Shown here one piece after another: positions 4,997 to 45,995 of a stretch of 45,995 nucleotides of DNA; the stretch's first letter is position 1, and every line of letters begins with the position of its first letter. This DNA comes from an uncultured bacterium. Lineage in GTDB: Bacteria > Bipolaricaulota > Bipolaricaulia > UBA7950 > UBA9294. The translations under genes and the position numbers were made by a program. The notes beneath the pieces are model-generated. The model saw only the letters and a program-made list of their open reading frames with translations. It was not told the origin of the DNA and searched no databases. The stretch covers positions 1-45,995 of the forward strand of contig CAIMCX010000105.1 in NCBI GenBank assembly GCA_903839615.1. Reading direction: 5' to 3'.

Positions 4997-5025
4997 TTGA
5001 CGCCCCTTGGCCTCAGGGGTACAAT
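4997..5025 (+). promoter_or_regulatory. Near-consensus sigma70-type promoter for ftsH
   Basis: TTGACG (4997-5002), 17-nt spacer, TACAAT (5020-5025). GAGGAG lies 7 nt upstream of ATG 5049. The alternative ATG 5007 lies inside the promoter spacer (5003-5019), upstream of the -10, so it is upstream of the predicted TSS. Confidence 0.6.
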
Positions 5026-5048
5026 TGCGCTCTGTCGAGGAGTCGATC

Positions 5049-6886
<1,838 letters not shown>

Positions 6887-6890
<4 letters not shown>

Positions 6891-24484: not shown

Positions 24485-25300
24485 GTGGAAGTCCTAACCA
24501 TGAAGGAGTTGCTCGAGACCGGAGTCCACTTCGGGCATCGCACCCGGAAGTGGAACCCCAAGATGGCGCGCTACATCTTCACGGAGCGCAAGGGGATTCA
24601 CATTATCGATCTCGAGCAGACCGTGGACATGTTCAAGAAGGCGTACTACTCCGTTCGCGACCGCGTTGCGGCCGGCGGAGAAGTGCTCTTCGTCGGCACG
24701 AAGAAACAGGTCCAGGGCACGATCGCCGAAGAGGCCCTGCGCTGCGGCGCCCACTACGTCAACCGACGTTGGCTGGGCGGCACGCTGACGAACTTCGCAA
24801 CGATCCGGTTGAGCATCGAGCGAATGAAGAAGATGGAAGCAATGGTCGAGGACGGCACCGTGGAGCACATGCCGAACAAGGAGGCCAGCAAGCTGCGGCG
24901 CGAGTTGTCGAAGCTGCAGCGCAACCTCGACGGCCTTCGCCACATGCAGCGACGCCCTGACATCCTCTACATCATCGACCCGGACGTCGAAGTGAACGCA
25001 GTCCACGAGGCGAATCTCCTCGGGATTCCGGTCATCGCCATCGTCGACACAAACTGCAATCCCGACCCGATTGACTATCTGATCCCGGGCAATGACGACG
25101 CGATCAAGGCGACGAAGCTCATCACCGCGCGCATCGCCGACGCAGTGCTGGAAGGCCGCGAGGGGCGCCAAGACGCCCCGGAGGCGCCTCACGCCGCCGT
25201 GGCAACCGCGGAGCCGGAAGCGAGTGCGCCCGTTGACGAGACGGCTCTCCTGGAGACCCTCGCCGTCGAGGTCAACGTCGAGACCGAAGAGGGGAAGTAA
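24485..25300 (+). CDS. rpsB: 30S ribosomal protein S2
   Basis: (V)[26 protein letters not shown] is a typical S2 N-terminus. GTG 24485 is preceded by GGAGGG; ATG 24500 is the alternative. Confidence 0.9.
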
Positions 25301-25303
25301 GCC

Positions 25304-25897
25304 ATGGCCACCATACGATCCGAGGATGTTCAGAAGCTGCGCCTCGAGACCGGCATCGGGATGATGGACTGCAAGAAAGCGCTCGTCGAAACCGATGGGG
25401 ACTTCGCCCGCGCGAAGCAGCTCCTCCGCGAGCAGGGCCTCGAACTGATGGGCCTGCAAGGGCGCGAGGCGAACGAAGGCCGCATCGAGTGCTACCTGCA
25501 CCACAGCGGGAAGATCGGCGCCATGGTCGAAGTCAAGGCCAACACGGACTTTGCTGCGAAGAGCGACGAGTTCATCCGTTTCGCCCGGGACTTGGCGATG
25601 CACATCGCGGCCTCGAATCCGCGCTATATCGCCCCCGAGGACGTTCCCGCGGCAGATCTCGATGCGGAGAAGCAGGTCTACCGCAGGCAGCTTGAGAGCG
25701 AAGGCAAGCCGCAGAACATCGTCGAGAAGGCGATCGAGGGGCGGATCAATCGGTTCTACGAGGAGCAGTGCTTGGTGAAGCAGGCGTTCGCCAAGGATCC
25801 GACCGTGAAGGTCGAGGGACTGCTTGCCGACCTGCGAACCAAGACGGGCGAGAATATCCGCGTGAAACGGTTCGCCCGCTTCGAGGTCGGGAAGTAG
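25304..25897 (+). CDS. tsf: Elongation factor Ts (short form)
   Basis: VQKLRLETGIGMMDCKKALVETDGDFARAKQLLREQG UBA-like N-terminus; IGAMVEVKANTDFAAKSDEF. Confidence 0.9.
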   Translation: MATIRSEDVQKLRLETGIGMMDCKKALVETDGDFARAKQLLREQGLELMGLQGREANEGRIECYLHHSGKIGAMVEVKANTDFAAKSDEFIRFARDLAMHIAASNPRYIAPEDVPAADLDAEKQVYRRQLESEGKPQNIVEKAIEGRINRFYEEQCLVKQAFAKDPTVKVEGLLADLRTKTGENIRVKRFARFEVGK

Positions 25898-25901
25898 CGG
25901 C

Positions 25902-26594
25902 ATGGCCGCCGCGCCGAGCCGCATCTTGCTCAAGCTGAGCGGCGAGGCATTCAAGGGTCCCGAGGGTGCGTTCTCGCCGATTGCGCTCGAACGCATCGCA
26001 GGGGAGATCGCGCCCATTTCTTCCGGCATCGCCATCGTTGTTGGAGCGGGCAACATCGTCCGAGGGGCGCGAAGCGACCTTCTCGATCGCGTCGAGGCGG
26101 ACACGCTCGGCATGCTCGCGACAGTCTTGAACGCGCTTGCCCTTCGCACGTACCTCGAGGCGCGCGACCGTGACGTTTTCGTTCAATCTGCCGTGTCGAC
26201 CGAGTTGACGGATCCTGTCTCCCCGCGCGATGCGCGGCGCGCCCTCGATCAAGGAGCCGTCGTGATCTTCGCCGGCGGCACAGGAAGCCCCCTCGTTACG
26301 ACCGACACGGCAGCGGCCCTCCGCGCGGTGTCCGTCGGAGCCGATCTCCTGGCCAAAGCATCGAACGTGGACGGGCTCTATGACCGCGATCCGGCTTGCG
26401 ATCCCGCGGCGCGGCTGCTTCGTCAGGTGTCGTTCGACGAGTTCCTGTCCGCGCGCTATGGCGTCATGGACCAGGTAGCCGTGGAGATCTGCCGTGAGCA
26501 TCACCTGCCCATTGAGATCTTCGACTTCGAGAAGACGGGCGCTCTGCGCCAGCTTGCCGAGGGGCGCCGCGTCGGCACGCGCATCGGCGCCTAG
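25902..26594 (+). CDS. pyrH: UMP kinase
   Basis: ILLKLSGEAF, VVGAGNIVRG, MLATVLNALAL, VIFAGGTGSPLVTTDTAAALRA. Confidence 0.9.
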   Translation: MAAAPSRILLKLSGEAFKGPEGAFSPIALERIAGEIAPISSGIAIVVGAGNIVRGARSDLLDRVEADTLGMLATVLNALALRTYLEARDRDVFVQSAVSTELTDPVSPRDARRALDQGAVVIFAGGTGSPLVTTDTAAALRAVSVGADLLAKASNVDGLYDRDPACDPAARLLRQVSFDEFLSARYGVMDQVAVEICREHHLPIEIFDFEKTGALRQLAEGRRVGTRIGA

Positions 26595-37378: not shown

Positions 37379-38055
37379 GGACAAGCGCCATTCTCCTTGC
37401 CGCTGGCCGCGGACGCCGCATGGGCCAGGGTGTGAACAAGGTCTTTCTCCCCGTAGGCGGCGTTTCGATTCTCGCTCGAGCCGCCCTCGCATTCGCGCAA
37501 GTGCCGCGAATCGATGAGTTGATCGTCGTGGCCCACCCTGACGAGATGGCCCTCGCCGCCGATGCGCTGCCTCCTCTCGACATCCCGGTTCGCGTCGTCG
37601 AGGGAGGCGCGGAGCGGCACGACTCCGCGCTCGCCGGCGTGACGGCCGCAACGGGGGACGTCCTCCTCATTCATGACGCGGCGCGACCTTTCCCGTCACA
37701 GGATCTGATCGAACGCGTGATCGAGGGCACACTGCGCCATGGTGCCTGCATTCCCGTGATCCCCGTCGTCGACACCCTGCGCCTTGTCAACGCGGACGGG
37801 ACCGCGTCCGGGGATCCCGTCGAACGCGACCGCCTTTCCCACGTGCAGACGCCGCAAGGGTTTCGCGCCGAGATCATTCGACAAGCTCTGGCCGAGTGGC
37901 GGTCAGGAGTCCTCCTTCTGGACGACGCAGCCGCCGTGCTTGCGTGTGGTATCCGCGTCGTCACCGTGGCTGGGAATCCACGGAACCTGAAGGTCACGAC
38001 CCCAGCGGACCTCGAATTCGCAGGCCATGTGGCTGTAGGTTCGCAAGGTACCTAG
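37375..38055 (+). CDS. ispD: 2-C-methyl-D-erythritol 4-phosphate cytidylyltransferase
   Basis: ORF trimmed to ATG 37375. AILLAAGRGRRMG, NKVFLP, HDAARPF, VDTL, QTPQGF. Confidence 0.9.
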   Translation: MRTSAILLAAGRGRRMGQGVNKVFLPVGGVSILARAALAFAQVPRIDELIVVAHPDEMALAADALPPLDIPVRVVEGGAERHDSALAGVTAATGDVLLIHDAARPFPSQDLIERVIEGTLRHGACIPVIPVVDTLRLVNADGTASGDPVERDRLSHVQTPQGFRAEIIRQALAEWRSGVLLLDDAAAVLACGIRVVTVAGNPRNLKVTTPADLEFAGHVAVGSQGT

Positions 38056-38075
38056 AACACAGCCGTCCGCTTGCG

Positions 38076-38104
38076 TTGCCGATCCACTCGCGCCCCGCTA
38101 GAAT
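38076..38104 (+). promoter_or_regulatory. Sigma70-type promoter for the orphan secreted-protein gene
   Basis: TTGCCG (38076-38081), 17-nt spacer, TAGAAT (38099-38104). AAGGAGG lies 5 nt upstream of ATG 38133. Confidence 0.55.
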
Positions 38105-38132
38105 GCTCGCTATTGTTGTCAAGGAGGATTCC

Positions 38133-38822
38133 ATGCTTCGAACGAAGAACGTCGGGTGGTTGTTTGCAGCGACGGCCGTCATCGTGATGCTCGTCGGGAG
38201 CGCCGCGGTGGCAACCGAGCCCATCCAGTCCTACGTCGTAGGAGACACGGCGGCTTGGGTGTTCAACAACCTTACGGGTGTGGACGTGACCGGCATTCAC
38301 GTCGAGTTCGACCGGGCCGTCACGATGACCTACAAATTCGAGATCGGCGGGTACTTCCCGGCGCTCGGTCCCGCGACGGGGACGACGTTTAACTATAACG
38401 GCGGCTCGCTTGTGTCCGGCGGCTGCCTCATTCTCCAGTGGCAGCCCGCAGATGCGCAGCCCACGTTGGTCATGTGGATGAACGGCGCGCACCCGGTCGG
38501 GAAGCCCTACTTCACGACGATTGACCGCCTCGGCTACCTGTTCGGGCAGGGCATCGTCTACCTGCGGCAGGCGAATCCTGCTGCGCTGCAGGCCGCGTTC
38601 GGGCAGTTCTTCGCCGACAACGCCGCCTACTTCACGCAGCTCTCACAGACGCTCGGCATGTCGCTCCAGGACTCGCTCCTGCCGATCATCATGTCGGCTC
38701 CGGCGGAAGGAATCCAGAACTTCTTCAACACAATCATCGGGATGCTTGGAGTCACCGACCTCCAAGGTCTTCTTGGCGGGGCCGTGAACTTCAGCTCGTT
38801 GATGACGGCGCTCGGACTATAA
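38133..38822 (+). CDS. Secreted protein of unknown function (beta-rich N-terminal half, helical Ala/Gln/Phe-rich C-terminal half)
   Basis: ORF 37896-38822 trimmed to ATG 38133, which has a perfect AAGGAGG SD. Signal peptide MLRTKNVGWLFAATAVIVMLVGSAAVA. I recognise no family motif. Confidence 0.7.
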   Translation: MLRTKNVGWLFAATAVIVMLVGSAAVATEPIQSYVVGDTAAWVFNNLTGVDVTGIHVEFDRAVTMTYKFEIGGYFPALGPATGTTFNYNGGSLVSGGCLILQWQPADAQPTLVMWMNGAHPVGKPYFTTIDRLGYLFGQGIVYLRQANPAALQAAFGQFFADNAAYFTQLSQTLGMSLQDSLLPIIMSAPAEGIQNFFNTIIGMLGVTDLQGLLGGAVNFSSLMTALGL

Positions 38823-38846: not shown

Positions 38847-38883
38847 CGCGCGGGGGGGCGTTGCCCCCTCCGCGTCTTTCTTT
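38847..38883 (+). terminator. Rho-independent terminator for the orphan gene; the hairpin could also serve the converging EamA gene
   Basis: GC-rich stem cgcgcgggggggc / gccccctccgcg with one bulge and one G-U pair, a 3-nt loop, followed by tctttcttt. Confidence 0.65.
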
Positions 38884-38899: not shown

Positions 38900-39979
38900 T
38901 TAGGAGCCCGTCTCATGGGGATGCCGGTGATGCGCGTCCGGGCGGTGTGGATGGGTGTGCACGAGGCTTGTGTGTGTGTGAGCGTGCGCGTGTGCTCCCT
39001 CGGTGGTCTCGGCGTCCGCGTGGGCGTGCTCATGGTGCTCGTCGTGGACGTGCCGGTGCGTGTGGATCGAGGGCTCGTGACCGTGGGAGTGTTCGTGGCG
39101 CTCTCGCATGAGGAGCCACGTCGCGAAGAGGACGAGCGGAAACGCAGCGTACGTCGTGATGGGCGGCCCTTCGCGGAAGATGCACAGCGAGATCGCGGCC
39201 GCGAGGAACGGCGCGGCTCCGAACAACGCCCCCGTTCTGGCAGAGCCAAGCTTCCGCAGCGAACGAACGAAGAACGCAATACTCGCACCGTACGAGACAG
39301 CGCCCAGTGCCAGCGAGGCGAGAGCGGGACCTACCGTTGGGAATGGCCGGCCGAGCGCAAGCGCCAGGAGAAGAGAGAACGCCCCGGCGCCCAAGCCCTT
39401 CAGAATGACGATCGTCTTCGGATTGCGCAGCGAGACGTTGCGCGTGAGGTTGTTGTCGAGTCCCCAAAGGACGCAGGCGCAGACAATCAGGAGAGATCCC
39501 GGCGAGAGACCCCAGGCGCCCGCCGGGCTGATGGACAGGAGGACTGCGCCGACAGTCACGAGCCCGACTGCCAGCCACGCAACCCGCCCGACGGCCTCGC
39601 GGAAGAGAATCGCGGCGAGCCCCGCCGTAGCCGCGGTCTCGAGCGTGAGCAGGAGAGATGCCGTGGCCGCGGGAGTCTTGGCAAGCCCGAAGAGGAGGCA
39701 GAGGGGCGCTGCGACTCCTCCAACGAAGATCGCGGAAACGAGCGAAGGGATGTCGCCACGCTCGAGGCGCGCTTCCTCTCCGCGGCGACCCGCACCAGCG
39801 AGGGCTCCCGCCAGAAGCCCGAGGCAGGCACCAGCTCCCAGGTACAGGAGGCCGGCGAGGACGATCGGGTCTACGTCAGTCAGGAGAAGCTTCGATAGCG
39901 GCGAAGAGAGCCCGAATAGGGCCGCAGCCAAGAGCCCGTCAAGAGCTCCGGATGCCGCCCCAACCCGCGGCGCGGTCAT
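38900..39979 (-). CDS. DMT/EamA-family permease (10 TM) with a 65-aa histidine-rich C-terminal tail
   Basis: Two EamA-like halves of 5 TM each. The tail HEHSHGHEPSIHTHRHVHDEHHEHAHADAETTEGAHAHAHTHTSLVHTHPHRPDAHHRHPHETGS contains 23 His in 65 residues. The ATG overlaps the upstream stop (ATGA at 39976-39979). Confidence 0.8.
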   Translation of the reverse strand: MTAPRVGAASGALDGLLAAALFGLSSPLSKLLLTDVDPIVLAGLLYLGAGACLGLLAGALAGAGRRGEEARLERGDIPSLVSAIFVGGVAAPLCLLFGLAKTPAATASLLLTLETAATAGLAAILFREAVGRVAWLAVGLVTVGAVLLSISPAGAWGLSPGSLLIVCACVLWGLDNNLTRNVSLRNPKTIVILKGLGAGAFSLLLALALGRPFPTVGPALASLALGAVSYGASIAFFVRSLRKLGSARTGALFGAAPFLAAAISLCIFREGPPITTYAAFPLVLFATWLLMRERHEHSHGHEPSIHTHRHVHDEHHEHAHADAETTEGAHAHAHTHTSLVHTHPHRPDAHHRHPHETGS

Positions 39980-42237
39980 GCCTCTTCCTGCAGGAGGGCA
40001 CGGACGCGTGGCGGGTCGAGCGGGTACTTCGTGAGCCGTCGTCCGGTGGCATGAGCGACCGCGCGAGCGACGGCAGCGTGTGCGGCCATGAGCGGCACCT
40101 CGCCGATGCCCTTCATCCCGAACGGCCCTGCGGGGAAGAGGTCTTCAACGAAATCCACGATTGGCTTGAGTGGGACGTCGCGAATCGTCGGGATGCGGTA
40201 GGTCGTGAATCCGTTGACCACGAGGTGCCCGTCTCGGACGCCGATCCCCTCCATCAGGGCAAAGCCGATGCCCTGCGCAACGCCGCCCTCGACCTGCCCC
40301 GTGGCGAGAGCACGATTGAGGATGCGTCCTGAATCATGCACTGCGATGTAGTCGATGACGCGCGTCTCCCCGGTCCGCACGTCGACCTCGACCTCCGCGA
40401 TGTGCGTCGCGTAGGCGTAGACCGGGTATGCGTCGCCGAGTCCGGTCGCGGGGTCCCAGCTCACGGGCTCGGTCGACGCGAAGCCTTCCACCGCAGGGTC
40501 AAGGTTCTCGATCCAGAAGTGATGCGCAATCTCCGGCAGACGATCGGCGATCTCCCGTTTCGGAATCTTGTGCGCCTTCGCGACGTTCTCGATCCGCTCA
40601 CGCAACTTCGCTGCCGCATCGAGGACGGCAAGCGCGCTCATCATCGTGCCGCGCGACGCGACAGTCGGACCGCTGTCGGGAACGCGCGACGTGTCGACCG
40701 GCGCGAGCTGGACGCGATCGAGCGGCACACCAAGGCCCTCGGCGGCGACCTGGAGCACCGCCGTCGTCAGGCCCTGGCCCATCTCGACCGTCCCGATCGC
40801 AACCCCGACCGAGCCGTCCGGCTCGAGCTTCATCGTCGCTCCCGCCTTGTCGAGGAATGGCGCCTTGCCGCCGAGCCCGACGCCGTAGAGGACGCACGCC
40901 ACGCCAATCCCGCGGCGCGTCTCGCTCGACGAGCGATTGTGCGCATCGATCGAGGCAAGGCGCTCGGGCCAATGGGCAAGATCCGCCGCGCGGTCGAGTG
41001 TCTCAGCCACGCCGACGCTCGACGCGACGCAGTGATCCGTCGAGGTGCAATCCCCGGCGTGAAGGACGTTCCGGCGCCTGATCTCCACCCGGTCGATCTT
41101 CAGGCGCTCGGCAAGGAGGTCCATCTGCGACTCGTGCGGGAAGATGACCTGCGGGCTCCCGAATCCTCGGAACGCCCCGTTCGGCACCGTGTTCGTCGCC
41201 ACCGAACGGGCGACGACGCGCACGTTGGGAACGCGATACGGACCCGCCGCCGTGACGAGGCTGCGCCAGAGGACGGCGGACGAGAGCGTCTGGTACGCGC
41301 CCGCGTTGAGGACAACGTCCACGTCGATCCCCGTGATTCGGCCGTCGGCGTCCGCCGCCGTCTTGTAGCGGACCACCGATGGATGCCGCTTGCTGGTTGT
41401 CAACACATCTTCGGCCCGGTCGAGGACGAGCTTCACCGGTCGCCGAGTGGCCCACGCGCCGATCGCGGCAAGCGAGCCAATGAGCGACGGCACGTCTTCT
41501 TTGCCTCCGAACGCGCCGCCGGTGGCGGTGGCCACGACGCGCACCTTGGCCAAAGGAAGGCCGAGAACCTTCGCCACCGCGTTCTGCACGTAGAACGGGC
41601 ACTGCATCGACCCGTAGACGCAGAGCGCACCCAGTTCTTCCGGAACGGCAACCGCACCTTGGGTTTCGAGATAGGCATGCTCCTGGTACCCGGTCTCGTA
41701 GACGCCCTCGACCACAGCCACCGCGTCAGCCACCGCGCGGTCGGCGTCGCCCTTGTCGAGCACCATGCGGTTGAACAGGTTCCCGCCTTCCGCGGCGGAC
41801 GGCACAGCTACAAGCGGCGCACCTGGCTCGAGCGCGGCGAGCGGGTCAGCAACGAACGGCAGGACCTCGTATTCGACGTGCACGGCGGCCGCCGCCGCGC
41901 GAGCCTCGGCTCGCGTTCCGGCAACGACAAGGACCACGGGCTCTCCTACGTAGCGCACGACGCCCTCGGCGAGCGCCGGCTGGTCGTCGACGATCACGTG
42001 CACGATGTTGTCGCCGGGAACGTCGGTCGCCGTGAGCACGGCGACCACCCCGGAAAGAGAACGCGCCGCCTCGGCTTCGATTCCGACGATGCGCGCGTGA
42101 GGGTGCGGACTGCGAACGAGAGAAGCGTGGAGCATGCCGGGGAAGGCGAGGTCGTCCGCGTACCTCGCCTCGCCCCGGACCTTATCGATCGCATCGGGCC
42201 TAGGAACCCCGGCTCCGATGAGCGTCGTACGCTTCAC
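39976..42237 (-). CDS. Xanthine dehydrogenase/aldehyde oxidase-family molybdopterin-binding subunit (no FeS or FAD domain)
   Basis: ORF trimmed to GTG 42237 (TAGTG overlap with the upstream stop; GGGAGG lies 9 nt upstream). a/b-hammerhead N-terminus: GAGVPRPDAIDKVRGEARYADD, HASLVRSPHPHARI. Also GGAFGGKE, AFRGFGSPQ and GIGEVPL. Confidence 0.85.
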   Translation of the reverse strand: MKRTTLIGAGVPRPDAIDKVRGEARYADDLAFPGMLHASLVRSPHPHARIVGIEAEAARSLSGVVAVLTATDVPGDNIVHVIVDDQPALAEGVVRYVGEPVVLVVAGTRAEARAAAAAVHVEYEVLPFVADPLAALEPGAPLVAVPSAAEGGNLFNRMVLDKGDADRAVADAVAVVEGVYETGYQEHAYLETQGAVAVPEELGALCVYGSMQCPFYVQNAVAKVLGLPLAKVRVVATATGGAFGGKEDVPSLIGSLAAIGAWATRRPVKLVLDRAEDVLTTSKRHPSVVRYKTAADADGRITGIDVDVVLNAGAYQTLSSAVLWRSLVTAAGPYRVPNVRVVARSVATNTVPNGAFRGFGSPQVIFPHESQMDLLAERLKIDRVEIRRRNVLHAGDCTSTDHCVASSVGVAETLDRAADLAHWPERLASIDAHNRSSSETRRGIGVACVLYGVGLGGKAPFLDKAGATMKLEPDGSVGVAIGTVEMGQGLTTAVLQVAAEGLGVPLDRVQLAPVDTSRVPDSGPTVASRGTMMSALAVLDAAAKLRERIENVAKAHKIPKREIADRLPEIAHHFWIENLDPAVEGFASTEPVSWDPATGLGDAYPVYAYATHIAEVEVDVRTGETRVIDYIAVHDSGRILNRALATGQVEGGVAQGIGFALMEGIGVRDGHLVVNGFTTYRIPTIRDVPLKPIVDFVEDLFPAGPFGMKGIGEVPLMAAHAAVARAVAHATGRRLTKYPLDPPRVRALLQEEA

Positions 42238-43262
42238 TACAAGCGGCCTCCCATCGTCAAGGTGAGGATCGCCTTTTGCGTGTGGAGGCGGTTCTCGGCC
42301 TGGTCGAGGATCCACGACAGCTTGTTGTCACACACCTCCGGATCCGCTTCATTGCCGCGGTCCACGGGCATGCATTGGAGGAGGTACCCGGGGTCGCCGA
42401 GCTTCTTCTGGCGCTCCGTCGAGTACTTCCAGCTCACGTACTTCTTCGCGATCTCGGCTTCTTTGTCCTTCCCGATCTGGTAGCGATCCTTCGTGAACCA
42501 GTTGCGCGGGAAGACGACGGTCGCCCCGTCGAGCGCCTTGTCGAGATCGTGCGAGATCTCGAACGATCCGCCCGACGCCGACGCGAGGTCGCGGCACTGT
42601 TGCATGACCTTCGGATCGAGGTCGTATTCGGGCGGGTTTGCCACCACGACGTTCATCCCGTACATCGAAGAGATGAGCGCCGTGCCCTGCACCGAGCACC
42701 AACCGCGGATCCACGGGGACCACGCCCACATGATGACGATCTTCTTGCGGTTGACGTCCGCGTCAAGCTTCTCGTGCATCGTGTAGATGTCGGTCAGCGA
42801 CTGGCACGGATGGTTGATGTCCGACGCCATGTTGATGATCGGCACGCGGCAATGCTTGGCGAACTTCTGCATGACCTCGTCCGCCTCGCCGTAGGCGCGG
42901 ATCTTGTCGTCGAGAAGCCGGATGCCGACTCCGTCGCAATACCGCTCCATTGCCTCGGCCGTGTCCTTCACCGTCTCCCCGGCGCCCGGCTTGTCCTCGA
43001 GCGACAGGCGCGTCGTCTGCGGGTCGATGAACTGCGCGTGCCCGCCGAGCTGCGTCATCGCCGTCTCGAACGACATGCGGGTCCTTGTGGAACCGGCGAA
43101 GAACATCATCGCGAACGTCTTGTACTGGAGGTACGGGTGAGGGGAGCGACTGTAGTACGCGCCCTTCATCTGGTCAGTGACCTTCATCGCGATGTCGTAC
43201 TCTTCCCGAGTCCAGTCAATTTCGCTGATCAGGTCACGACCGGCAAGATCGAACCAGCTCAT
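42237..43262 (-). CDS. Divergent aspartate/ornithine-carbamoyltransferase-superfamily protein, 'knotted' AOTCase/SOTCase/YgeW-like, with HCLP replaced by QCMP
   Basis: GSTRTR, HPCQ, IVIMWAWSP.., NVVVANPPEYDLDP, SGGSFEISHD, AENRLHTQKA. The motif at the HCLP position reads LLQCMPVDRG. Strong SD AAAGGAGG plus 4 nt precedes the ATG. Confidence 0.8.
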   Translation of the reverse strand: MSWFDLAGRDLISEIDWTREEYDIAMKVTDQMKGAYYSRSPHPYLQYKTFAMMFFAGSTRTRMSFETAMTQLGGHAQFIDPQTTRLSLEDKPGAGETVKDTAEAMERYCDGVGIRLLDDKIRAYGEADEVMQKFAKHCRVPIINMASDINHPCQSLTDIYTMHEKLDADVNRKKIVIMWAWSPWIRGWCSVQGTALISSMYGMNVVVANPPEYDLDPKVMQQCRDLASASGGSFEISHDLDKALDGATVVFPRNWFTKDRYQIGKDKEAEIAKKYVSWKYSTERQKKLGDPGYLLQCMPVDRGNEADPEVCDNKLSWILDQAENRLHTQKAILTLTMGGRL

Positions 43263-43322
43263 GAAACCTCCTTTGCCAGGAACGCAACCGCCGGGCGTCC
43301 TCTGCGGTTACGCCGGTCCTTC

Positions 43323-44360
43323 CTAGCCCATGATGCAGACCATCATGCCCTTCTGCCCGTGGAGGCGGTTCGCCGCCTGCTCGATGATGACCGAGTTCGG
43401 ACCGTCGATGACCTCATCCGTGACTTCCATGTCGCGGTCGGCGGGGAGGCAGTGCATGTAGATCGCGTCGTTCGTGAGCTTCATCTTGTCCTGCGTCGTG
43501 ATCCAGCTCTTGTTCGCCTCGAACAAGGCCTTCGCCTTCTCCGGATCCATCGGCATCTTGCCATCGGTTGGCTGCACGGTCCACGCCTTCGGGTAGACGA
43601 CGTCGGCGCCCTTGAACGCCTGATCCATGTCGTTCACGATCTTGAACGCCCCGCCATGGCGCTTCGCGAGATCCTTCGACGCCTGGAGCACCTTTGGGTC
43701 GAGATCGAAGCCCTTCGGATGGGCAAGCGTGACGTCCATGCCCATCGTCGCCGCGGCGATGATGCAGCTCTGCGGGACGGCAAGAGGCTTCTCGACCGAG
43801 CCGGAGTACGCCCAACTCATGACGAACTTCCTCCCCTGCAGGTTGTGACCGAGCTTCTCCTGCATCGTCATCACGTCGGCCAGGTCCTGGCACGGGTGAT
43901 ACATGTCGTCTTCCATGTTGATGACCGGGACCTTCGACCAGTGGGCAAACTCGCGGATGATCTGGTTGCCCTTGCCGTACTTCCAGTCGGTGTACTTGCC
44001 GTAGATGCGGATCGCGATCGCGTCGCCCATCTCGGCGAGGACGCGGGCGACGTCGCTGATGCGCTCGGTCGAGTAGGCCTTCTCATCGCCCTTCAGGGCC
44101 GGCGTGTAGACGGCGCCCGGTTGCAGGAAGTGGGCGTGACCGCCGAGCTGCGTCATCGCGGTTTCGAACGAGTTTCGGGTCCGCAGCGACGTGTTGTAGA
44201 ACATCATGTGCAACGTCTGCCCGTCGAGGATCTTGTGCGGCTCGCGGCGGATGAACTTCCGCTTCAGGTCGTGCCCGGTGTCGAGAATGGCATCCAGTTC
44301 GTCGCGCGAGAACTCAAGCCAGGTGATGAAGTCCCGTCCCCTCAGTGTTGTGTTGGACAC
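43323..44360 (-). CDS. 'Knotted' carbamoyltransferase (N-acyl-ornithine CTase / YgeW-like clade), substrate unknown
   Basis: SLRTR (the variant I recall from N-succinylornithine CTase), HPCQ, KFVMSWAYSGSVEKPLAVPQS, MDVTLAHPKGFDLDP, HGGAFKIVNDM, MHCLPADRDMEVTDEVIDGPNSVIIEQAANRLH. GTG start with GGGAGGA 4 nt upstream. Confidence 0.85.
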   Translation of the reverse strand: MSNTTLRGRDFITWLEFSRDELDAILDTGHDLKRKFIRREPHKILDGQTLHMMFYNTSLRTRNSFETAMTQLGGHAHFLQPGAVYTPALKGDEKAYSTERISDVARVLAEMGDAIAIRIYGKYTDWKYGKGNQIIREFAHWSKVPVINMEDDMYHPCQDLADVMTMQEKLGHNLQGRKFVMSWAYSGSVEKPLAVPQSCIIAAATMGMDVTLAHPKGFDLDPKVLQASKDLAKRHGGAFKIVNDMDQAFKGADVVYPKAWTVQPTDGKMPMDPEKAKALFEANKSWITTQDKMKLTNDAIYMHCLPADRDMEVTDEVIDGPNSVIIEQAANRLHGQKGMMVCIMG

Positions 44361-44387
44361 ATTTCCTCCCTCGTTTCTCTATCCTAT

Positions 44388-44417
44388 GGTGATGGCCATC
44401 CGCAGATGGCCATCACC
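44388..44417 (-). promoter_or_regulatory. Perfect 30-nt palindrome (13-bp arms, 4-nt centre) at the carbamate kinase stop; either an RNA stem-loop or a protein operator
   Basis: GGT-GATGGCCATC-CGCA-GATGGCCATC-ACC. The 10-mer GATGGCCATC is itself palindromic and occurs twice. The right arm contains the CK stop codon. No U-tract follows on the mRNA strand. Confidence 0.6.
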
Positions 44418-45366
44418 CCGTGATCGTCGTGCCGGCCTTGCCATCGAGCGCGTCCGTCGCCTTGTCGAGCGAGGTGATGATCGCCTTCTCGCCGCCCGCC
44501 TCGACGAACCGAATCGCGGCACGGACCTTCGGCTCCATCGACCCCTTCGCGAAATGTCCCTCGGCGTGATACTTCTTCGCCTCGGCCACCGTCATGCGGT
44601 CGAGCGCTTTTTCCTGCGGCGTCTTGTAGTAGAGCTTCACCTGGCTCACGTCGGTCAGGATCATGAAGATCGACGCCTTGACGTCGGCAGCCAACCGCTC
44701 CCCTGCAAGGTCCTTGTCGATGACGGCGTCCACGCCCTTCAGGCCGCCGTCCTCGCGTACGACGGGAATCCCGCCGCCGCCCGAAGCGATGACGATCGAG
44801 CGTGCCGCGACGAGCTGACGAATGACTTCCTTCTCGAAGATCTCGACCGGATCCGGAGATGCGACGACGCGGCGCCATCCGCGGCCGGCGTCTTCCTTCA
44901 CGTCGTAGCCCTTCTCGTCGTGCAGACGCTTCGCCTCGTCGGCGGAGTAGAACGGGCCGACGGGCTTCGTCGGATGCTTGAACGCGTCGTCGTTCGCGTC
45001 GACAACGACCTGCGTGACGATCGTGGCCACCGGGATGTCCGGGCGCCCTCCTGCGGCAAAGAGATTCGTCAGGTTCTGCTGGATCATATAGCCGATCAGA
45101 CCCTGGCTTTCGGCACCGCAGACGTAGAGCGGCATCGGTGCCGCGACGTCCTTCCCGACCTCGTTCTGCAGGAGGATGTTCCCCACCTGCGGGCCGTTCC
45201 CGTGCGTGACGACGATCTTGTACTTGCCCGACTCGACCATGTGCGCCAACTGCTCGCAGGTCAGGTGGACGTTCTTCATCTGTTCTTCGAACGTGCCGCG
45301 CTGGCCGGGCTGCAGGATCGCATTCCCGCCCAAGGCGACGACGACGAGTTTCTTCTCAGCTGGCAT
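44413..45366 (-). CDS. arcC: Carbamate kinase
   Basis: KLVVVALGGNAIL, VVTHGNGPQVG, IDKDLAGERLA, GGGIPV. Start at ATG 45366 (SD GAAGGAAGAGAGGA) rather than ATG 45411. Confidence 0.9.
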   Translation of the reverse strand: MPAEKKLVVVALGGNAILQPGQRGTFEEQMKNVHLTCEQLAHMVESGKYKIVVTHGNGPQVGNILLQNEVGKDVAAPMPLYVCGAESQGLIGYMIQQNLTNLFAAGGRPDIPVATIVTQVVVDANDDAFKHPTKPVGPFYSADEAKRLHDEKGYDVKEDAGRGWRRVVASPDPVEIFEKEVIRQLVAARSIVIASGGGGIPVVREDGGLKGVDAVIDKDLAGERLAADVKASIFMILTDVSQVKLYYKTPQEKALDRMTVAEAKKYHAEGHFAKGSMEPKVRAAIRFVEAGGEKAIITSLDKATDALDGKAGTTITG

Positions 45367-45410
45367 CCGTTCCTCTCTTCCTTCACCGCTGGTCTTCGTT
45401 TCGCGCGGCA

Positions 45411-45995
45411 TTACGCTTCCCAGATCTCGCGCATCCGTGTCCAGTGTTCGACCATCTTCGAGCGAGCCGTCTCGCTATCTCTCTCTTCCACCGCCGCGAA
45501 GATCTCACGATGCAGATCGACCACGTGCTGAAGGTCGCTCACGTTCTTCAAGTAATACTGGCGCGTGAACTCCCGATACACCCTGTGGTCCATCGTGTCG
45601 ATCAGCGGTCCGAGCGCGGACGAGATGAGAGCGTTGCCCGATGCCTCAGCGAGGGCGCTGTGGAACGCCTTGTCCGCCTGGAAGTACGCCTCGAAGTCGT
45701 TCTTCGCGGCGAAGCGCCCCATTCGCTTCAGCGCGTCTCTCAGTTTCGTGAGCGCCGAGTTGGCCATCTTCTCTGCCGCCAGCGCCGCAACGGCCGGCTC
45801 GAGCGCCTCGCGAGCCTCCATCACCTCAAGGCAGCCGGCCTCGCTTTCGATCAGCCCGACGGCGTTCCGCTCATCCAGAGGCGATGGCGCGCGCAGGACG
45901 TAGTTGCCGCTTCCCGGGCGCGACTCGATCAGCGCCATCGCCTGAAGTGCGGACAGGGCTTCTCGGATCGATGGACGACTCACGCCCATCTGCTC
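45411..45995 (-). CDS. GntR-family transcriptional regulator with a FadR-type FCD C-terminal domain; N-terminus lies beyond the window edge
   Basis: The frame is open to nt 45995. (E)QMGVSRPSIREALSALQAMALIESRPGSGNYV is the wHTH recognition region. An all-helical ~150-aa FCD-like domain follows. Confidence 0.8.
   Translation of the reverse strand, partial: EQMGVSRPSIREALSALQAMALIESRPGSGNYVLRAPSPLDERNAVGLIESEAGCLEVMEAREALEPAVAALAAEKMANSALTKLRDALKRMGRFAAKNDFEAYFQADKAFHSALAEASGNALISSALGPLIDTMDHRVYREFTRQYYLKNVSDLQHVVDLHREIFAAVEERDSETARSKMVEHWTRMREIWEA

What the first reader, a model, noticed from the sequence alone, without database searches (positions are those of the whole stretch)
38900..45995. 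Candidate undescribed ATP-yielding ureide/N-heterocycle catabolic operon: GntR(FCD), carbamate kinase, two knotted carbamoyltransferases, lone Mo-hydroxylase, His-tailed DMT permease
Six same-strand genes are packed with gaps of 60 nt or less or with shared stop/start nucleotides (TAGTG at 42235-42239, ATGA at 39976-39979), so they look like one transcription unit. A carbamoyltransferase next to a carbamate kinase is the established logic for turning a ureido/carbamoyl compound into carbamoyl phosphate and then ATP. That logic operates in the arginine deiminase, agmatine and oxalurate/allantoin routes. Here there is no deiminase, amidohydrolase, hydantoinase or ammonia-lyase in view. Instead the partners are a xanthine-dehydrogenase-type Mo subunit and a DMT permease. 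The gene set recalls the E. coli ygeW / yqeA (carbamate kinase) / xdh neighbourhood linked to anaerobic purine breakdown. It lacks that cluster's ygeX, ygeY, hyuA, ssnA and ygfK equivalents, and it carries two carbamoyltransferases. By my recollection of the bovine XDH alignment, the Mo subunit keeps GGAFGGKE and an Arg 34 residues before the AFRGF phenylalanine. That is the Glu/Arg pair typical of purine hydroxylases. I cannot assign the substrate, and I know of no described pathway with this composition.
Basis: partly seen in the sequence, partly recalled or inferred. Interest (0 to 1): 0.75.

Follow-up and report, generated by a model that had tools for sequence, protein, structure and literature searches.

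The report
Two-carbamoyltransferase ATP-yielding ureide breakdown operon
A Bipolaricaulota bacterium carries a tightly packed operon (regulator, carbamate kinase, two unusual carbamoyltransferases, a lone molybdenum hydroxylase subunit, a permease) that most likely is a new variant of the recently discovered anaerobic uric-acid/purine breakdown route, one that could make ATP from both urea-like groups of the intermediate instead of one.

Summary
In detail: six minus-strand genes (GntR/FCD, carbamate kinase, CTase CT1, CTase CT2, XDH-type Mo subunit, His-tailed EamA permease) are packed with gaps of 60 nt or less or overlapping stop/start codons. The organism is Ca. Bipolaricaulota, and GntR-CK-CT1-CT2 is syntenic in all related loci. 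The window cuts the cluster. In the closest relative (L097, same gene order) a HyuA-like dihydropyrimidinase lies just upstream of GntR, next to a divergent CBS/OASS-like PLP enzyme. CT1 passes NCBIfam's N-acetylornithine CTase cut-off. However, it lacks that enzyme's three specificity residues, has no arg neighbours, and groups with YgeW, the diureidopropionate CTase of the 2,8-dioxopurine (reductive urate) pathway described in 2025. In Chloroflexota and Actinomycetota, YgeW-like CTase, CK and the same PLP enzyme sit with SsnA, XdhD, YgfK and HyuA. There the slot next to the YgeW-like gene holds either YgeY or a second CTase. CT2 is a narrow, Bipolaricaulota-restricted clade. Best reading: the ATP-yielding lower module of a reductive purine pathway with two phosphorolytic decarbamoylations. 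No SsnA, YgfK, XdhD or Fe-S/FAD subunit genes were found nearby, so the substrate is unproven. Verdict: new variant of a known kind.

The parts
45411..45995 (-). GntR-family regulator with FCD ligand-binding domain; its N-terminal ~44 residues lie outside the window
   Evidence: Pfam FCD 100 bits and partial GntR HTH. It is 89% identical to the full-length 235-aa protein of L097. A GntR gene heads the CK-CT1-CT2 block in every relative whose upstream DNA is available.
44413..45366 (-). Carbamate kinase (YqeA/ArcC type), 317 aa; an alternative upstream ATG at 45411 overlaps the GntR stop (TAATG)
   Evidence: NCBIfam TIGR00746 arcC 435.8 bits, cut-off 358. 47.6% identical to E. coli YqeA. Homologues are 316-318 aa.
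43323..44360 (-). CT1: knotted carbamoyltransferase, sister group of YgeW (diureidopropionate CTase), with AOTCase-like long 80's and 120's loops
   Evidence: OTCace_N+OTCace. NCBIfam AOTCase 320 bits, above the 288 cut-off, but YgeW models score only 163-174 against cut-offs of 453-500. E. coli YgeW is its best E. coli match (176 bits, versus ArgI 141). NJ bootstrap: CT1+YgeW clade 80%, CT1+AOTCase 4%. It has the YgeW-type loop SWAYSGSVEKPLAVPQ and the equivalents of YgeW S200/K203/K270; AOTCase Glu92/Asn185/Lys302 are Thr/Pro/Glu.
42237..43262 (-). CT2: divergent knotted-type carbamoyltransferase of a clade restricted to Bipolaricaulota
   Evidence: OTCace_N+OTCace, with no NCBIfam cut-off reached. 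STRTR and HPCQ are invariant; HxLP is [QH][CV]MP; the loop is Trp-rich (WAWSPWIRGWCSVQ). All named relatives are Bipolaricaulota. Genome scan: identity falls from 54% to 40%. Among 1.84 billion representatives only one full-length protein exceeds 50% identity. AF2 model pLDDT 93; the best PDB match is knotted AOTCase 3kzk (TM 0.89, rmsd 1.9 A) versus P. furiosus OTCase (TM 0.84, rmsd 3.0 A).
39976..42237 (-). Lone molybdopterin-binding subunit of the xanthine-oxidase family, 753 aa, GTG start overlapping the CT2 stop (TAGTG)
   Evidence: Ald_Xan_dh_C, MoCoBD_1 and MoCoBD_2. Best NCBIfam hits pucD/XdhB/XdhA are all below cut-off. Closest PDB entries are bovine XO and R. capsulatus XdhB. Gln767, Glu802, Arg880, Phe914 and Glu1261 are kept; Phe1009/Thr1010 are Gly/Lys. 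It is not XdhD type, which has Gln/Asn/Tyr at 802/880/914. No 2Fe-2S motif anywhere in the window.
38900..39979 (-). EamA/DMT permease with a His-rich C-terminal tail; ATG overlaps the Mo stop (ATGA)
   Evidence: Pfam EamA, two repeats. Present only in the closest relatives: L097 76%, L011 70%, fragmented in L001. The tail has 23-24 His in the last 70 residues in all three intact copies (window, L097, L011).
38848..38875 (.). G+C-rich hairpin between the permease stop and the convergent + strand gene 37896-38822; probable end of the transcription unit
   Evidence: Terminator-like hairpin with 11 pairs, 9 of them G-C. The T-run follows on the + strand only, so termination of the minus-strand operon here is inferred, not shown.

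Best explanation
The window holds the distal six genes of a Bipolaricaulota catabolic cluster. In full, the cluster reads [PNPOx-like / NTPase_1] <- [CBS/OASS-like PLP enzyme] <-> [HyuA-like dihydropyrimidinase] -> GntR -> (M20 peptidase in some genomes) -> CK -> CT1 -> CT2 -> Mo subunit -> (permease).

It most likely encodes the lower, ATP-yielding part of a reductive purine/urate degradation route of the 2,8-dioxopurine type. The proposed steps are:
1. The cyclic amidohydrolase opens a ureido-substituted hydantoin or dihydropyrimidine to 2,3-diureidopropionate.
2. CT1, the YgeW relative, phosphorolyses one ureido group to carbamoyl phosphate.
3. CT2 phosphorolyses the second ureido group. 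This is the step that the hydrolase YgeY performs in E. coli.
4. Carbamate kinase converts each carbamoyl phosphate plus ADP into ATP, CO2 and NH3, giving up to 2 ATP per molecule.
5. The PLP enzyme converts the resulting beta-substituted alanine (2,3-diaminopropionate or albizziin) into pyruvate.

The XDH-type Mo subunit would act upstream on the purine ring. The GntR/FCD protein would control the cluster in response to a pathway metabolite, and the permease would import substrate or export product.

Shown here: the gene identities, packing, synteny, phylogenetic placement and active-site residues. Inferred: every substrate, the division of labour between CT1 and CT2, the role of the Mo subunit, and co-transcription.
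For: (1) Family calls and operon-like packing.

(2) GntR-CK-CT1-CT2 is conserved in all Bipolaricaulota loci at 54-94% CT2 identity. The Mo subunit follows CT2 in most of them.

(3) L097, the closest relative, has the identical gene order including the permease (CT1 94%, CT2 91%, CK 91%, GntR 89%). It continues upstream with a 459-aa amidohydrolase and a divergent 491-aa PLP enzyme. The L010 copy of the amidohydrolase passes TIGR02033 D-hydantoinase/dihydropyrimidinase (402 bits, cut-off 393) and is 38.5% identical to E. coli HyuA.

(4) CT1 groups with YgeW rather than AOTCase (80% versus 4% bootstrap) and shares YgeW's proline-rich loop motif and three of its proposed substrate residues. YgeW plus YqeA were shown experimentally to make ATP from 2,3-diureidopropanoate (bioRxiv 10.1101/2025.04.24.650524; PMC12507026).

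(5) In Chloroflexota, Actinomycetota and other loci (L016-L047), a YgeW-like CTase (40-48% identical to CT1), CK (46-50%) and the same PLP enzyme (42-72% identical) are clustered with several pathway genes: SsnA (529 bits, cut-off 444), XdhD-type Mo enzymes, YgfK, a HyuA-like amidohydrolase and 8-oxoguanine deaminase.

(6) In those loci the slot directly upstream of the YgeW-like gene holds either a pseudo-ATCase (16 loci) or a YgeY orthologue (7 loci; 36-53% identity). Both occur together only in L045. This suggests that a second CTase can stand in for the ureido-hydrolase.

(7) No YgeX orthologue occurs in any locus; the PLP enzyme and/or a ThrC-like protein is present instead. The PLP enzyme's sequence and model resemble cystathionine beta-synthase / O-acetylserine sulfhydrylase, which act on beta-substituted alanines.

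(8) The Mo subunit keeps the purine-hydroxylase residues Glu802/Arg880/Phe914/Glu1261.
Against: No SsnA, YgfK/UacX or XdhD-type enzyme is present in the 46-kb window or within 10 kb of the cluster in any Bipolaricaulota locus. The source of diureidopropionate is therefore unaccounted for.

The Mo subunit is of the classical XDH type, not the uric-acid-6-dehydroxylase (XdhD) type. It has no Fe-S or FAD partner genes nearby.

CT1 fails the YgeW NCBIfam cut-offs, lacks YgeW's extra helices and 240's-loop insertion, and has Glu rather than Gln at the YgeW Q98 and Q160 positions.

Some Bipolaricaulota clusters carry an M20 peptidase in addition to CT1 and CT2 (L093/94, L012, L013, L015). This weakens the simple idea that CT2 replaces YgeY.

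The dihydropyrimidinase and the PLP enzyme are not in the window itself, and they are absent next to the cluster in L004-7 and L008.

The phylogeny is NJ only, with moderate support (80-84%). No enzyme of this cluster has been assayed.
Confidence: 0.48

Rival explanations
1. Reductive pyrimidine or generic hydantoin catabolism with phosphorolytic decarbamoylation. The dihydropyrimidinase opens dihydrouracil/dihydrothymine (or 5-substituted hydantoins). CT1 and CT2 then phosphorolyse N-carbamoyl-beta-alanine and N-carbamoyl-beta-aminoisobutyrate (or N-carbamoyl amino acids), and CK harvests ATP. The two CTases would serve two substrates rather than two ureido groups of one molecule.
For: The upstream amidohydrolase in relatives scores best as dihydropyrimidinase/D-hydantoinase (TIGR02033). 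A PNPOx-like flavin/deazaflavin oxidoreductase lies in the divergent operon and could serve as a ring reductase. The absence of SsnA means that only one ring-opening enzyme is visible.
Against: The PLP enzyme is CBS/OASS-like and so suited to alpha-amino acids with a beta leaving group, not to beta-alanine. Its orthologues, and the relatives of CT1, are clustered with purine-specific genes (SsnA, XdhD, YgfK, 8-oxoguanine deaminase) in other phyla. The Mo subunit keeps the Glu/Arg pair of purine hydroxylases.
Confidence: 0.2
2. Allantoin/allantoate route. The amidohydrolase acts as an allantoinase. One CTase cleaves allantoate (diureidoacetate) to ureidoglycine plus carbamoyl phosphate, as proposed for the Rubrobacter UGTCase. 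The other cleaves a second ureide such as oxalurate or ureidoglycine.
For: Allantoate also carries two ureido groups. A CTase+CK+allantoinase module has been proposed before (PMC4016543). An XDH-type Mo enzyme would make urate.
Against: The amidohydrolase scores below the allantoinase cut-off (291 bits, cut-off 358) but above the hydantoinase cut-off. No uricase, HIU hydrolase, OHCU decarboxylase or ureidoglycolate genes were seen in any locus. UGTCase belongs to the pseudo-ATCase lineage, not the knotted lineage of CT1 and CT2. A beta-eliminating PLP enzyme has no obvious role in this route.
Confidence: 0.08
3. Arginine-related metabolism. CT1 is an (acyl)ornithine carbamoyltransferase, as NCBIfam would name it. 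Together with CK it either degrades citrulline or N-acyl-citrulline for ATP, or supplies carbamoyl phosphate for arginine synthesis.
For: CT1 exceeds the NCBIfam N-acetylornithine CTase cut-off (320 bits, cut-off 288). It is about 40% identical to X. campestris AOTCase, with the same long 80's and 120's loops and the Glu144/Lys252 equivalents.
Against: The three residues that define AOTCase specificity (Glu92, Asn185, Lys302; PMC4581275) are Thr, Pro and Glu in all eight Bipolaricaulota CT1 sequences. CT1+AOTCase monophyly gets 4% bootstrap. No arg gene neighbours the cluster in any of about 20 loci, and CK is always adjacent.
Confidence: 0.07
4. A pathway for a different, still unknown diureide or N-heterocycle (not purine-derived) that merely reuses homologous parts.
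For: SsnA, YgfK and XdhD are absent. CT2 differs from CT1 and YgeW at nearly every proposed second-substrate position (Ala/Trp/Gly/Arg). The accessory genes vary between genomes (M20 peptidase, alanine racemase, permease, solute-binding protein).
Against: All conserved parts have their closest characterised or context-linked relatives in purine clusters.
Confidence: 0.15

Closest known systems
E. coli / Clostridium sporogenes 2,8-dioxopurine (reductive uric acid) pathway cluster: xdhD-ygfM, ygfK, ssnA, hyuA, ygeW, yqeA, ygeY, ygeX (bioRxiv 10.1101/2025.04.24.650524 = Nat Microbiol 2025; PMC12507026)
   Same: It has a knotted CTase next to a carbamate kinase, giving substrate-level ATP from a ureido group. 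A HyuA-type cyclic amidohydrolase is present, but only in the closest relatives, just outside the window. A xanthine-oxidase-family Mo enzyme lies in the cluster, and a fold-type-II PLP enzyme sits at the end of the pathway. Identities to E. coli proteins: CK 48% to YqeA; CT1 34% to YgeW (its best E. coli match); amidohydrolase 36-39% to HyuA.
   Different: There are two CTases instead of YgeW plus the hydrolase YgeY. No SsnA or YgfK/UacX is present. The Mo subunit is of the classical XDH type (Glu/Arg/Phe), not the XdhD type (Gln/Asn/Tyr), and lacks fused or adjacent Fe-S and FAD modules. A CBS/OASS-like PLP enzyme replaces YgeX. The regulator is GntR/FCD rather than the sigma-54 activator YgeV.
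Chloroflexota/Actinomycetota SsnA clusters with pseudo-ATCase + YgeW homologue (pseudo-ATCase subgroup 2 of Nocardioides sp. JS614, PMC4016543; Chloroflexota variant noted in PMC12507026)
   Same: Two adjacent CTases plus CK and the same 490-aa PLP enzyme (up to 72% identity). A HyuA-like amidohydrolase is often present.
   Different: Their second CTase derives from ATCase (HSLP motif, unknotted lineage), whereas CT2 is a knotted-lineage paralogue. They also carry SsnA, XdhD/XdhABC with Fe-S and FAD subunits, 8-oxoguanine deaminase and a ThrC-like enzyme, none of which was found in Bipolaricaulota loci.
N-acetylornithine carbamoyltransferase (X. campestris AOTCase, PDB 3kzk)
   Same: About 40% identity to CT1. 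It has the same long 80's and 120's loops. It is the best structural match to the CT2 model. NCBIfam would file CT1 under this name.
   Different: The specificity residues Glu92/Asn185/Lys302 are absent. CT1 has a catabolic context (CK neighbour, no arg genes) and a separate phylogenetic position.
Arginine deiminase / agmatine deiminase pathways (catabolic OTCase or PTCase + carbamate kinase)
   Same: The same energy-conserving logic: phosphorolysis of a ureido compound, then CK makes ATP.
   Different: No deiminase is present. CT1 and CT2 belong to the knotted group, not the OTCase/PTCase clade. There are two CTases and a Mo enzyme.
Ureidoglycine carbamoyltransferase module of Rubrobacter xylanophilus (PMC4016543)
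   Same: A CTase plus CK plus cyclic amidohydrolase within a purine-degradation cluster; the substrate is a diureide (allantoate).
   Different: UGTCase is a pseudo-ATCase. Its cluster contains uricase, HIU hydrolase and allantoinase, which belong to the oxidative route; none of these is seen here.

Membership tests
Transcarbamylase superfamily (CT1, CT2) | Three carbamoyl-phosphate-binding motifs SxRT, HPxQ and HxLP (PMC4581275) | tested here: met
   CT1 has SLRTR, HPCQ and HCLP. CT2 has STRTR and HPCQ (invariant in 39 family members), but its third motif is QCMP in the window copy ([QH][CV]MP across the family), so that motif is only partly kept. Both Pfam domains score well above cut-off.
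Knotted transcarbamylases (AOTCase/SOTCase/YTCase group) | Proline-rich loop plus extended 120's loop; C-terminal trefoil knot | tested here: inconclusive
   CT1 has the loop SWAYSGSVEKPLAVPQ and a long 120's loop. CT2 has a loop of equal length but rich in Trp with a single Pro (WAWSPWIRGWCSVQ), and a long 120's loop. Both fall in the knotted clade (98% bootstrap). The CT2 model matches knotted AOTCase best (TM 0.89). The knot itself could not be computed because model coordinates are not returned.
N-acetylornithine carbamoyltransferase (CT1) | NCBIfam equivalog NF003384 score above cut-off | tested here: met
   320.2 bits, cut-off 288. CT2 scores 218.6 and fails.
N-acetylornithine carbamoyltransferase (CT1) | Specificity residues Glu92, Asn185, Lys302 (X. 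campestris numbering; PMC4581275) | tested here: not met
   These are Thr, Pro and Glu in all 8 Bipolaricaulota CT1 sequences. Trp77, His180 and Arg298 are also replaced, by Pro, Ser and Asp.
N-acetylornithine carbamoyltransferase (CT1) | Placement inside the AOTCase clade and location in an arginine-biosynthesis gene cluster | tested here: not met
   CT1+AOTCase monophyly 4% bootstrap, against CT1+YgeW 80%. No arg genes in any locus; CK is always adjacent.
YgeW-type carbamoyltransferase (YTCase; diureidopropionate CTase) (CT1) | NCBIfam equivalogs TIGR03316 / NF005538 above cut-off; extra N- and C-terminal helices and a two-helix insertion in the 240's loop | tested here: not met
   162.8 and 174.1 bits against cut-offs of 500 and 453. 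CT1 is 345 aa versus 396 aa and lacks these insertions in the alignment.
YgeW-type carbamoyltransferase (CT1) | Sister or nested phylogenetic position, shared loop motif and substrate-site residues, gene next to carbamate kinase | tested here: met
   80% bootstrap for the CT1+YgeW clade. The S200, K203, K270 and E344 equivalents are kept; Q98 and Q160 are Glu. CK lies immediately upstream. This shows relatedness, not identity of substrate.
Carbamate kinase | TIGR00746 arcC equivalog above cut-off | tested here: met
   435.8 bits, cut-off 358.25, covering the full length.
Xanthine dehydrogenase (classical, purine-hydroxylating) | Active-site residues Gln767, Glu802, Arg880, Phe914, Phe1009, Glu1261 (bovine numbering) | tested here: inconclusive
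   Five of six are kept; Phe1009 is Gly (Ala in L008) in all six Bipolaricaulota copies. All NCBIfam XDH equivalogs are below cut-off (best is pucD, 547 bits against 784).
Xanthine dehydrogenase holoenzyme | Two [2Fe-2S] clusters and an FAD module, either fused or encoded by adjacent genes | tested here: not met
   The protein has no Fe-S or FAD domain. No 2Fe-2S subunit motif occurs in the window or in Bipolaricaulota loci L001-L015, although the same scan finds it in 9 loci of other phyla. The rest of the window is housekeeping genes. Partners elsewhere in the genome cannot be excluded.
XdhD / XdhAC 2,8-dioxopurine dehydrogenase | Orthology to E. coli XdhD (fused Fe-S domain; Gln/Asn/Tyr at bovine positions 802/880/914) | tested here: not met
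   28% identical to XdhD versus 33% to XdhA. It has Glu/Arg/Phe at those positions, whereas the XdhD-type proteins of L028, L029 and L033 have Gln/x/Tyr.
2,8-dioxopurine (reductive urate) pathway gene cluster | Presence of SsnA, YgfK (or UacX), HyuA, YgeW, YgeY, YgeX together with the Mo enzyme | tested here: not met
   In the window only the YgeW relative (CT1), the YqeA-type CK and a Mo subunit are present. A HyuA-like gene occurs in the closest relatives only. SsnA, YgfK, YgeX and true YgeY are absent from the window and from all Bipolaricaulota loci. So it may work like that pathway's lower half, but it is not a full member cluster.
GntR family, FCD subfamily | N-terminal winged HTH plus C-terminal FCD domain | tested here: met
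   FCD 100 bits; the HTH is partial because the window ends; the 89%-identical L097 protein is full length.
DMT superfamily (EamA) | Two EamA repeats | tested here: met
   Pfam EamA with two stretches, 90.8 bits. The substrate is not testable with these tools.

The most novel reading that the evidence does not exclude
Bipolaricaulota may run a self-contained anaerobic N-heterocycle (purine-type) fermentation that needs neither SsnA, YgfK nor XdhD. In this reading a classical-type Mo hydroxylase subunit works with non-canonical electron partners. A PNPOx-like reductase and a single hydantoinase/dihydropyrimidinase dearomatise the ring system and open it. Two knotted carbamoyltransferases then convert both ureido groups into carbamoyl phosphate, doubling the substrate-level ATP yield compared with the E. 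coli pathway. One of these CTases (CT2) would be a previously unrecognised family with an altered HxLP motif.
Probability: 0.15. Interest if true: 0.8.

Novelty: new variant of a known kind. Interest (0 to 1): 0.6.

Why it matters
The reductive urate pathway was worked out only in 2025, and only for gut Proteobacteria and Firmicutes. This cluster suggests that uncultured, deep-branching anaerobes such as Bipolaricaulota use a re-tooled version of it. It also suggests that replacing a hydrolase with a second carbamoyltransferase is a recurrent way to gain an extra ATP per purine. That swap is seen independently as a pseudo-ATCase in Chloroflexota/Actinomycetota and as CT2 here.

It gives two concrete enzymes to test, which bears on the open question of which ureido group YgeW-type enzymes attack (PMC12990295). 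It exposes a likely systematic misannotation, since CT1-type proteins pass the NCBIfam N-acetylornithine CTase cut-off. It also flags a Mo hydroxylase subunit with an intact active site but no visible electron-transfer partners.

Tried and rejected
An exact-sequence look-up of CT2 in the assembly index found nothing, so the window's own contig could not be extended. Relatives were used instead.

A greedy longest-ORF gene caller failed on high-GC loci by picking shadow ORFs. It was replaced by a GC3-minus-GC2 score. That caller still mis-called CT2 in the window, so the ORF listing coordinates were used there.

One tree-building script timed out and was split into steps.

I first considered that CT1 is a true AOTCase, as NCBIfam says. 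I rejected this on residues, phylogeny and gene context.

I considered that the AIRS-domain gene next to the cluster in L008 might be SelD, which would point to a selenium-dependent Mo hydroxylase. It is ThiL.

I considered YgeX-type diaminopropionate ammonia-lyase as the identity of the PLP enzyme. There is no YgeX-level similarity; the matches are cysK/CBS-like only.

Rfam found no riboswitch or other RNA family in the window or in L097, L093 or L010.

The candidate operator motif found in relatives is absent from the window, because the promoter side lies outside it.

Tong et al. 2023, on the genes of the Rabinowitz purine fermentation, is not held in the library. That pathway could therefore not be compared.

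No paper links Bipolaricaulota with carbamate kinase, and the two papers that mention both Bipolaricaulota and xanthine dehydrogenase were not opened.

Full report
**1. What is in the sequence**

ORF listing and the minus-strand sequence show six consecutive minus-strand genes at 38900-45995:
- A GntR/FCD regulator at 45411-45995. Its N-terminus is cut off by the window end.
- Carbamate kinase at 44413-45366. An in-frame ATG at 45411 overlaps the GntR stop as TAATG. The ATG at 45366 has a purine-rich ribosome-binding site and gives the 317 aa typical of homologues.
- CTase CT1 at 43323-44360, with a GTG start and a 52-nt gap.
- CTase CT2 at 42237-43262, with a 60-nt gap and an AGGAGG ribosome-binding site.
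- A molybdopterin-binding subunit at 39976-42237. Its GTG lies inside TAGTG at 42235-42239.
- An EamA permease at 38900-39979, with ATGA at 39976-39979.

Pfam and NCBIfam confirm each family. A G+C-rich hairpin at 38848-38875 separates the permease from a convergent gene. The rest of the window is housekeeping: FtsH, Dxr, MurJ, L9, FolP, PolA, PGM, GcvPA/GcvH, DnaB, RecG, Fmt, a PIN-TRAM protein and IspD. It contains no XDH Fe-S or FAD subunits and no MoCo genes.

**2. Organism and synteny**

All named homologues of CT2 come from Candidatus Bipolaricaulota. In about 20 related loci, with 54-94% CT2 identity, the order GntR-CK-CT1-CT2 is invariant. The Mo subunit follows CT2 in most of them but not in L004-7. 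The permease occurs only in the closest relatives.

The window cuts the cluster. L097 (GCA_040961015.1) has the same order IspD - hypothetical - EamA - Mo - CT2 - CT1 - CK - GntR, with 76-94% protein identity. It continues with a 459-aa amidohydrolase on the same strand, then a divergent 491-aa PLP enzyme followed by an NTPase_1+PNPOx fusion. L093/94 and L010 show the same upstream arrangement; L095 and L015 keep the PLP enzyme but lack the amidohydrolase. The L010 amidohydrolase passes the D-hydantoinase/dihydropyrimidinase equivalog (402 bits, cut-off 393) and is 38.5% identical to E. coli HyuA.

**3. The two carbamoyltransferases**

*CT1.* It exceeds NCBIfam's N-acetylornithine CTase cut-off (320 bits, cut-off 288) and is about 40% identical to X. 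campestris AOTCase. However, the residues that define AOTCase specificity, Glu92/Asn185/Lys302 (PMC4581275), are Thr/Pro/Glu in all Bipolaricaulota CT1 sequences. No arg gene is ever nearby. Among E. coli proteins its best match is YgeW (176 bits, versus ArgI 141).

In a bootstrapped NJ tree CT1 is sister to the YgeW clade (80%). CT1+CT2+YgeW is supported at 84% and the whole knotted group at 98%. CT1+AOTCase appears in only 4% of replicates.

CT1 shares YgeW's proline-rich loop motif (SWAY-x-S-xx-KPL-x-VPQ) and the equivalents of YgeW S200/K203/K270. It has Glu at the Q98 and Q160 positions, lacks YgeW's extra helices, and keeps AOTCase-like long 80's and 120's loops. It is therefore a distinct subtype, related to YgeW but not a member by NCBIfam criteria.

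*CT2.* It is 39% identical to CT1. It keeps STRTR and HPCQ but has [QH][CV]MP in place of HxLP, a Trp-rich version of the loop, and different residues at almost every second-substrate position (Ala/Trp/Gly/Arg).

The family is narrow. In the species-representative genome scan, identity drops from 54% to 40% outside Bipolaricaulota. Among 1.84 billion 50%-identity representatives only one full-length protein exceeds 50%.

Its AF2 model (pLDDT 93) matches knotted AOTCase best (TM 0.89, rmsd 1.9 A), ahead of the sequence-closer unknotted P. furiosus OTCase (TM 0.84, rmsd 3.0 A). 'Knotted' is thus supported by the sequence signature and the fold match, but the knot itself was not computed.

**4. 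Link to a known pathway**

Two 2025 studies established the 2,8-dioxopurine (reductive urate) pathway. The steps are:
- XdhD/XdhAC reduces urate to 2,8-dioxopurine.
- YgfK reduces 2,8-dioxopurine.
- SsnA and HyuA open the two rings, giving 2,3-diureidopropionate.
- YgeW phosphorolyses one ureido group, and YqeA makes ATP from the carbamoyl phosphate.
- YgeY hydrolyses the other ureido group.
- YgeX converts diaminopropionate to pyruvate.

The genome scan with CT2 also brought in loci from Chloroflexota, Actinomycetota, Verrucomicrobiota, Sumerlaeota and an Asgard archaeon (L016-L047). In these, a YgeW-like CTase (40-48% identical to CT1; 57% in the Asgard locus) sits with:
- CK;
- the same 490-aa PLP enzyme (42-72% identical to the Bipolaricaulota one);
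- a ThrC-like enzyme;
- a HyuA-like amidohydrolase;
- SsnA (529 bits, cut-off 444);
- 8-oxoguanine deaminase (722 bits, cut-off 532);
- XdhD-type Mo enzymes and YgfK.

These are variant urate clusters of the kind mentioned for Chloroflexota in PMC12507026.

In these loci the gene slot immediately upstream of the YgeW-like gene is occupied either by a pseudo-ATCase (16 loci) or by a YgeY orthologue (7 loci, 36-53% identity). Both are present only in L045. The pseudo-ATCase next to a ygeW homologue had been seen in Nocardioides JS614 without a function being assigned (PMC4016543). The alternation suggests that a second CTase can take over YgeY's step. That would turn the second ureido group into carbamoyl phosphate, and so into ATP, as well. 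No locus has a YgeX orthologue. The PLP enzyme resembles CBS/O-acetylserine sulfhydrylase by sequence and by a moderately confident model, pLDDT 75. This chemistry suits a beta-substituted alanine such as diaminopropionate or albizziin.

**5. The Mo subunit**

Its nearest solved relatives are bovine XO and R. capsulatus XdhB. It keeps Gln767, Glu802, Arg880, Phe914 and Glu1261, but has Gly-Lys in place of Phe1009-Thr1010 in all Bipolaricaulota copies (Ala-Lys in L008). E. coli XdhD and its orthologues in L028, L029 and L033 have Gln/x/Tyr at positions 802/880/914. The window protein is therefore not an XdhD-type urate dehydroxylase.

It has no Fe-S or FAD domain. A scan for the 2Fe-2S subunit motif finds that motif next to Mo subunits in nine loci of other phyla, but finds nothing in the window or in Bipolaricaulota loci L001-L015. 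How this subunit passes electrons is unexplained.

**6. Most likely mechanism, and its weak points**

The best-supported reading (confidence about 0.5) is as follows. The window encodes the regulated, ATP-yielding lower module of a reductive purine-type pathway. CT1 and CT2 remove the two ureido groups of diureidopropionate, or of a close analogue made by the upstream HyuA-like enzyme. CK makes ATP, and the divergent PLP enzyme finishes the carbon skeleton.

Weak points:
- No SsnA, YgfK or XdhD occurs in the window or within 10 kb of the cluster in any Bipolaricaulota locus.
- A Bipolaricaulota-specific M20 peptidase, only about 26% identical to YgeY, co-occurs with CT1 and CT2 in some genomes.
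- The amidohydrolase and PLP genes are absent beside the cluster in L004-7 and L008.
- Nothing has been assayed.

The rivals are a reductive pyrimidine/hydantoin route, an allantoate route, acyl-ornithine/citrulline metabolism, and an unknown diureide. They are listed in the rival explanations with their evidence.

**7. Novelty**

The logic and most of the parts are known, so this is not categorically new. Several things are new: a YgeW-sister CTase subtype that current models mislabel as AOTCase; a narrow CT2 clade with an altered third motif; a two-CTase layout built from knotted paralogues, parallel to but independent of the pseudo-ATCase solution; and a lone classical-type Mo subunit. In the literature I could search, I found no description of this composition or of two-fold phosphorolytic decarbamoylation.

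**8. Verdict**

Classification: new variant of a known kind. Interest: 0.6.

Noticed in passing
L097:8459-8477 and 9925-9943; L093:5990; L010:5496; L008:7122; L004:7134 (not in the window): A 19-bp motif, GCTATCATGCTGYCAGACC (up to 4 mismatches), recurs in the promoter-side intergenic regions: between the amidohydrolase and the PLP gene, between the amidohydrolase and GntR, or just upstream of GntR. It appears in Bipolaricaulota clusters that share as little as about 61% CT2 identity with the window. It is a candidate operator for the GntR/FCD regulator. There are 0 matches in the window, versus 0.01 expected by chance.
   Followed up: partly
L096:7306-8126 and L003:9615-9881 (complete genome CP070725.1): In this closed Bipolaricaulota genome the cluster is split between two sites about 790 kb apart. 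One site has PLP<->GntR-CK-CT1 (274 aa, truncated). The other has an 88-aa CT1 remnant, CT2 and a shortened Mo gene (568 aa). This looks like a rearrangement through CT1, with decay of the cluster.
   Followed up: partly
L001:1544-1996 and L002:1181-1633: A 150-aa PDDEXK_3 (nuclease-like) gene is inserted between CT1 and CT2 in a 90%-identical relative. In L012 the same gap holds an M20 peptidase gene instead. The CT1-CT2 junction therefore tolerates insertions.
   Followed up: no
window 38900-39110 (C-terminal 70 residues of the permease): The tail has 23 His in 70 residues, in HxH/HxxH runs. It is conserved in L097 (23 His) and L011 (24 His), even though the protein is only 70-76% identical overall. 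This suggests metal binding. The relevance to a pathway with Zn/Mn amidohydrolases and a Mo enzyme is unknown.
   Followed up: partly
L097:11473-12483; L010:2971-3966; L093:1977-2947; L096:11476-12415; L004:16980-17612: An NTPase_1/DUF2478 P-loop protein and a PNPOx-like (F420/FMN PPOX-class) protein, fused or adjacent, follow the PLP gene in most Bipolaricaulota clusters. They could act as a ring reductase or a cofactor-maturation factor. No such pair was seen in the Chloroflexota clusters.
   Followed up: partly
L095:3971-5110; L004:15908-16894: An alanine-racemase-family gene lies next to the PLP gene in L095 and about 5 kb from the cluster in L004-7. This is interesting because the R (D) configuration has been proposed for the ureido intermediates of the urate pathway (PMC12990295).
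   Followed up: no
L031:15288-16757, L028:13183-14655, L024:11077-12546 versus Bipolaricaulota L010:3971-5452: The 490-aa PLP enzyme is 66-72% identical between Bipolaricaulota and Anaerolineales/Acidimicrobiia. That is far higher than for the neighbouring CK (44-50%) or CT1 (43-48%). This suggests lateral transfer or very strong constraint. The family is large (8000 or more candidates) and is named only 'cysteine synthase' or 'PLP-dependent enzyme'.
   Followed up: partly
L017, L019, L020 (about 5000-7400): FolD and an 8-oxoguanine deaminase (722 bits, cut-off 532) head the Chloroflexota urate-type clusters. This points to 8-oxoguanine as an entry substrate there.
   Followed up: no
L018:2332-5049 and 8830-9903 (Promethearchaeota MAG): The closest non-Bipolaricaulota relative of CT1 (57% identity) is in an Asgard archaeon contig. 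It lies about 4 kb from an SsnA-like amidohydrolase and a ThrC-like PLP enzyme.
   Followed up: partly
window 42000-45000 versus 39000-42000: The CK-CT1-CT2 stretch is 62% G+C, against 68% for the Mo and permease genes, and CT1 has GC3 of 0.91. Spurious 715-aa shadow ORFs (40336-42483 and 42276-44423, + strand) overlap the real genes.
   Followed up: no
window 37896-38822 (+), 16546-17865 (+), 24494-26149 (-): Several sizeable ORFs have no Pfam match. One is the 308-aa protein convergent with the permease. Their function is unknown and they appear unrelated to the cluster.
   Followed up: no
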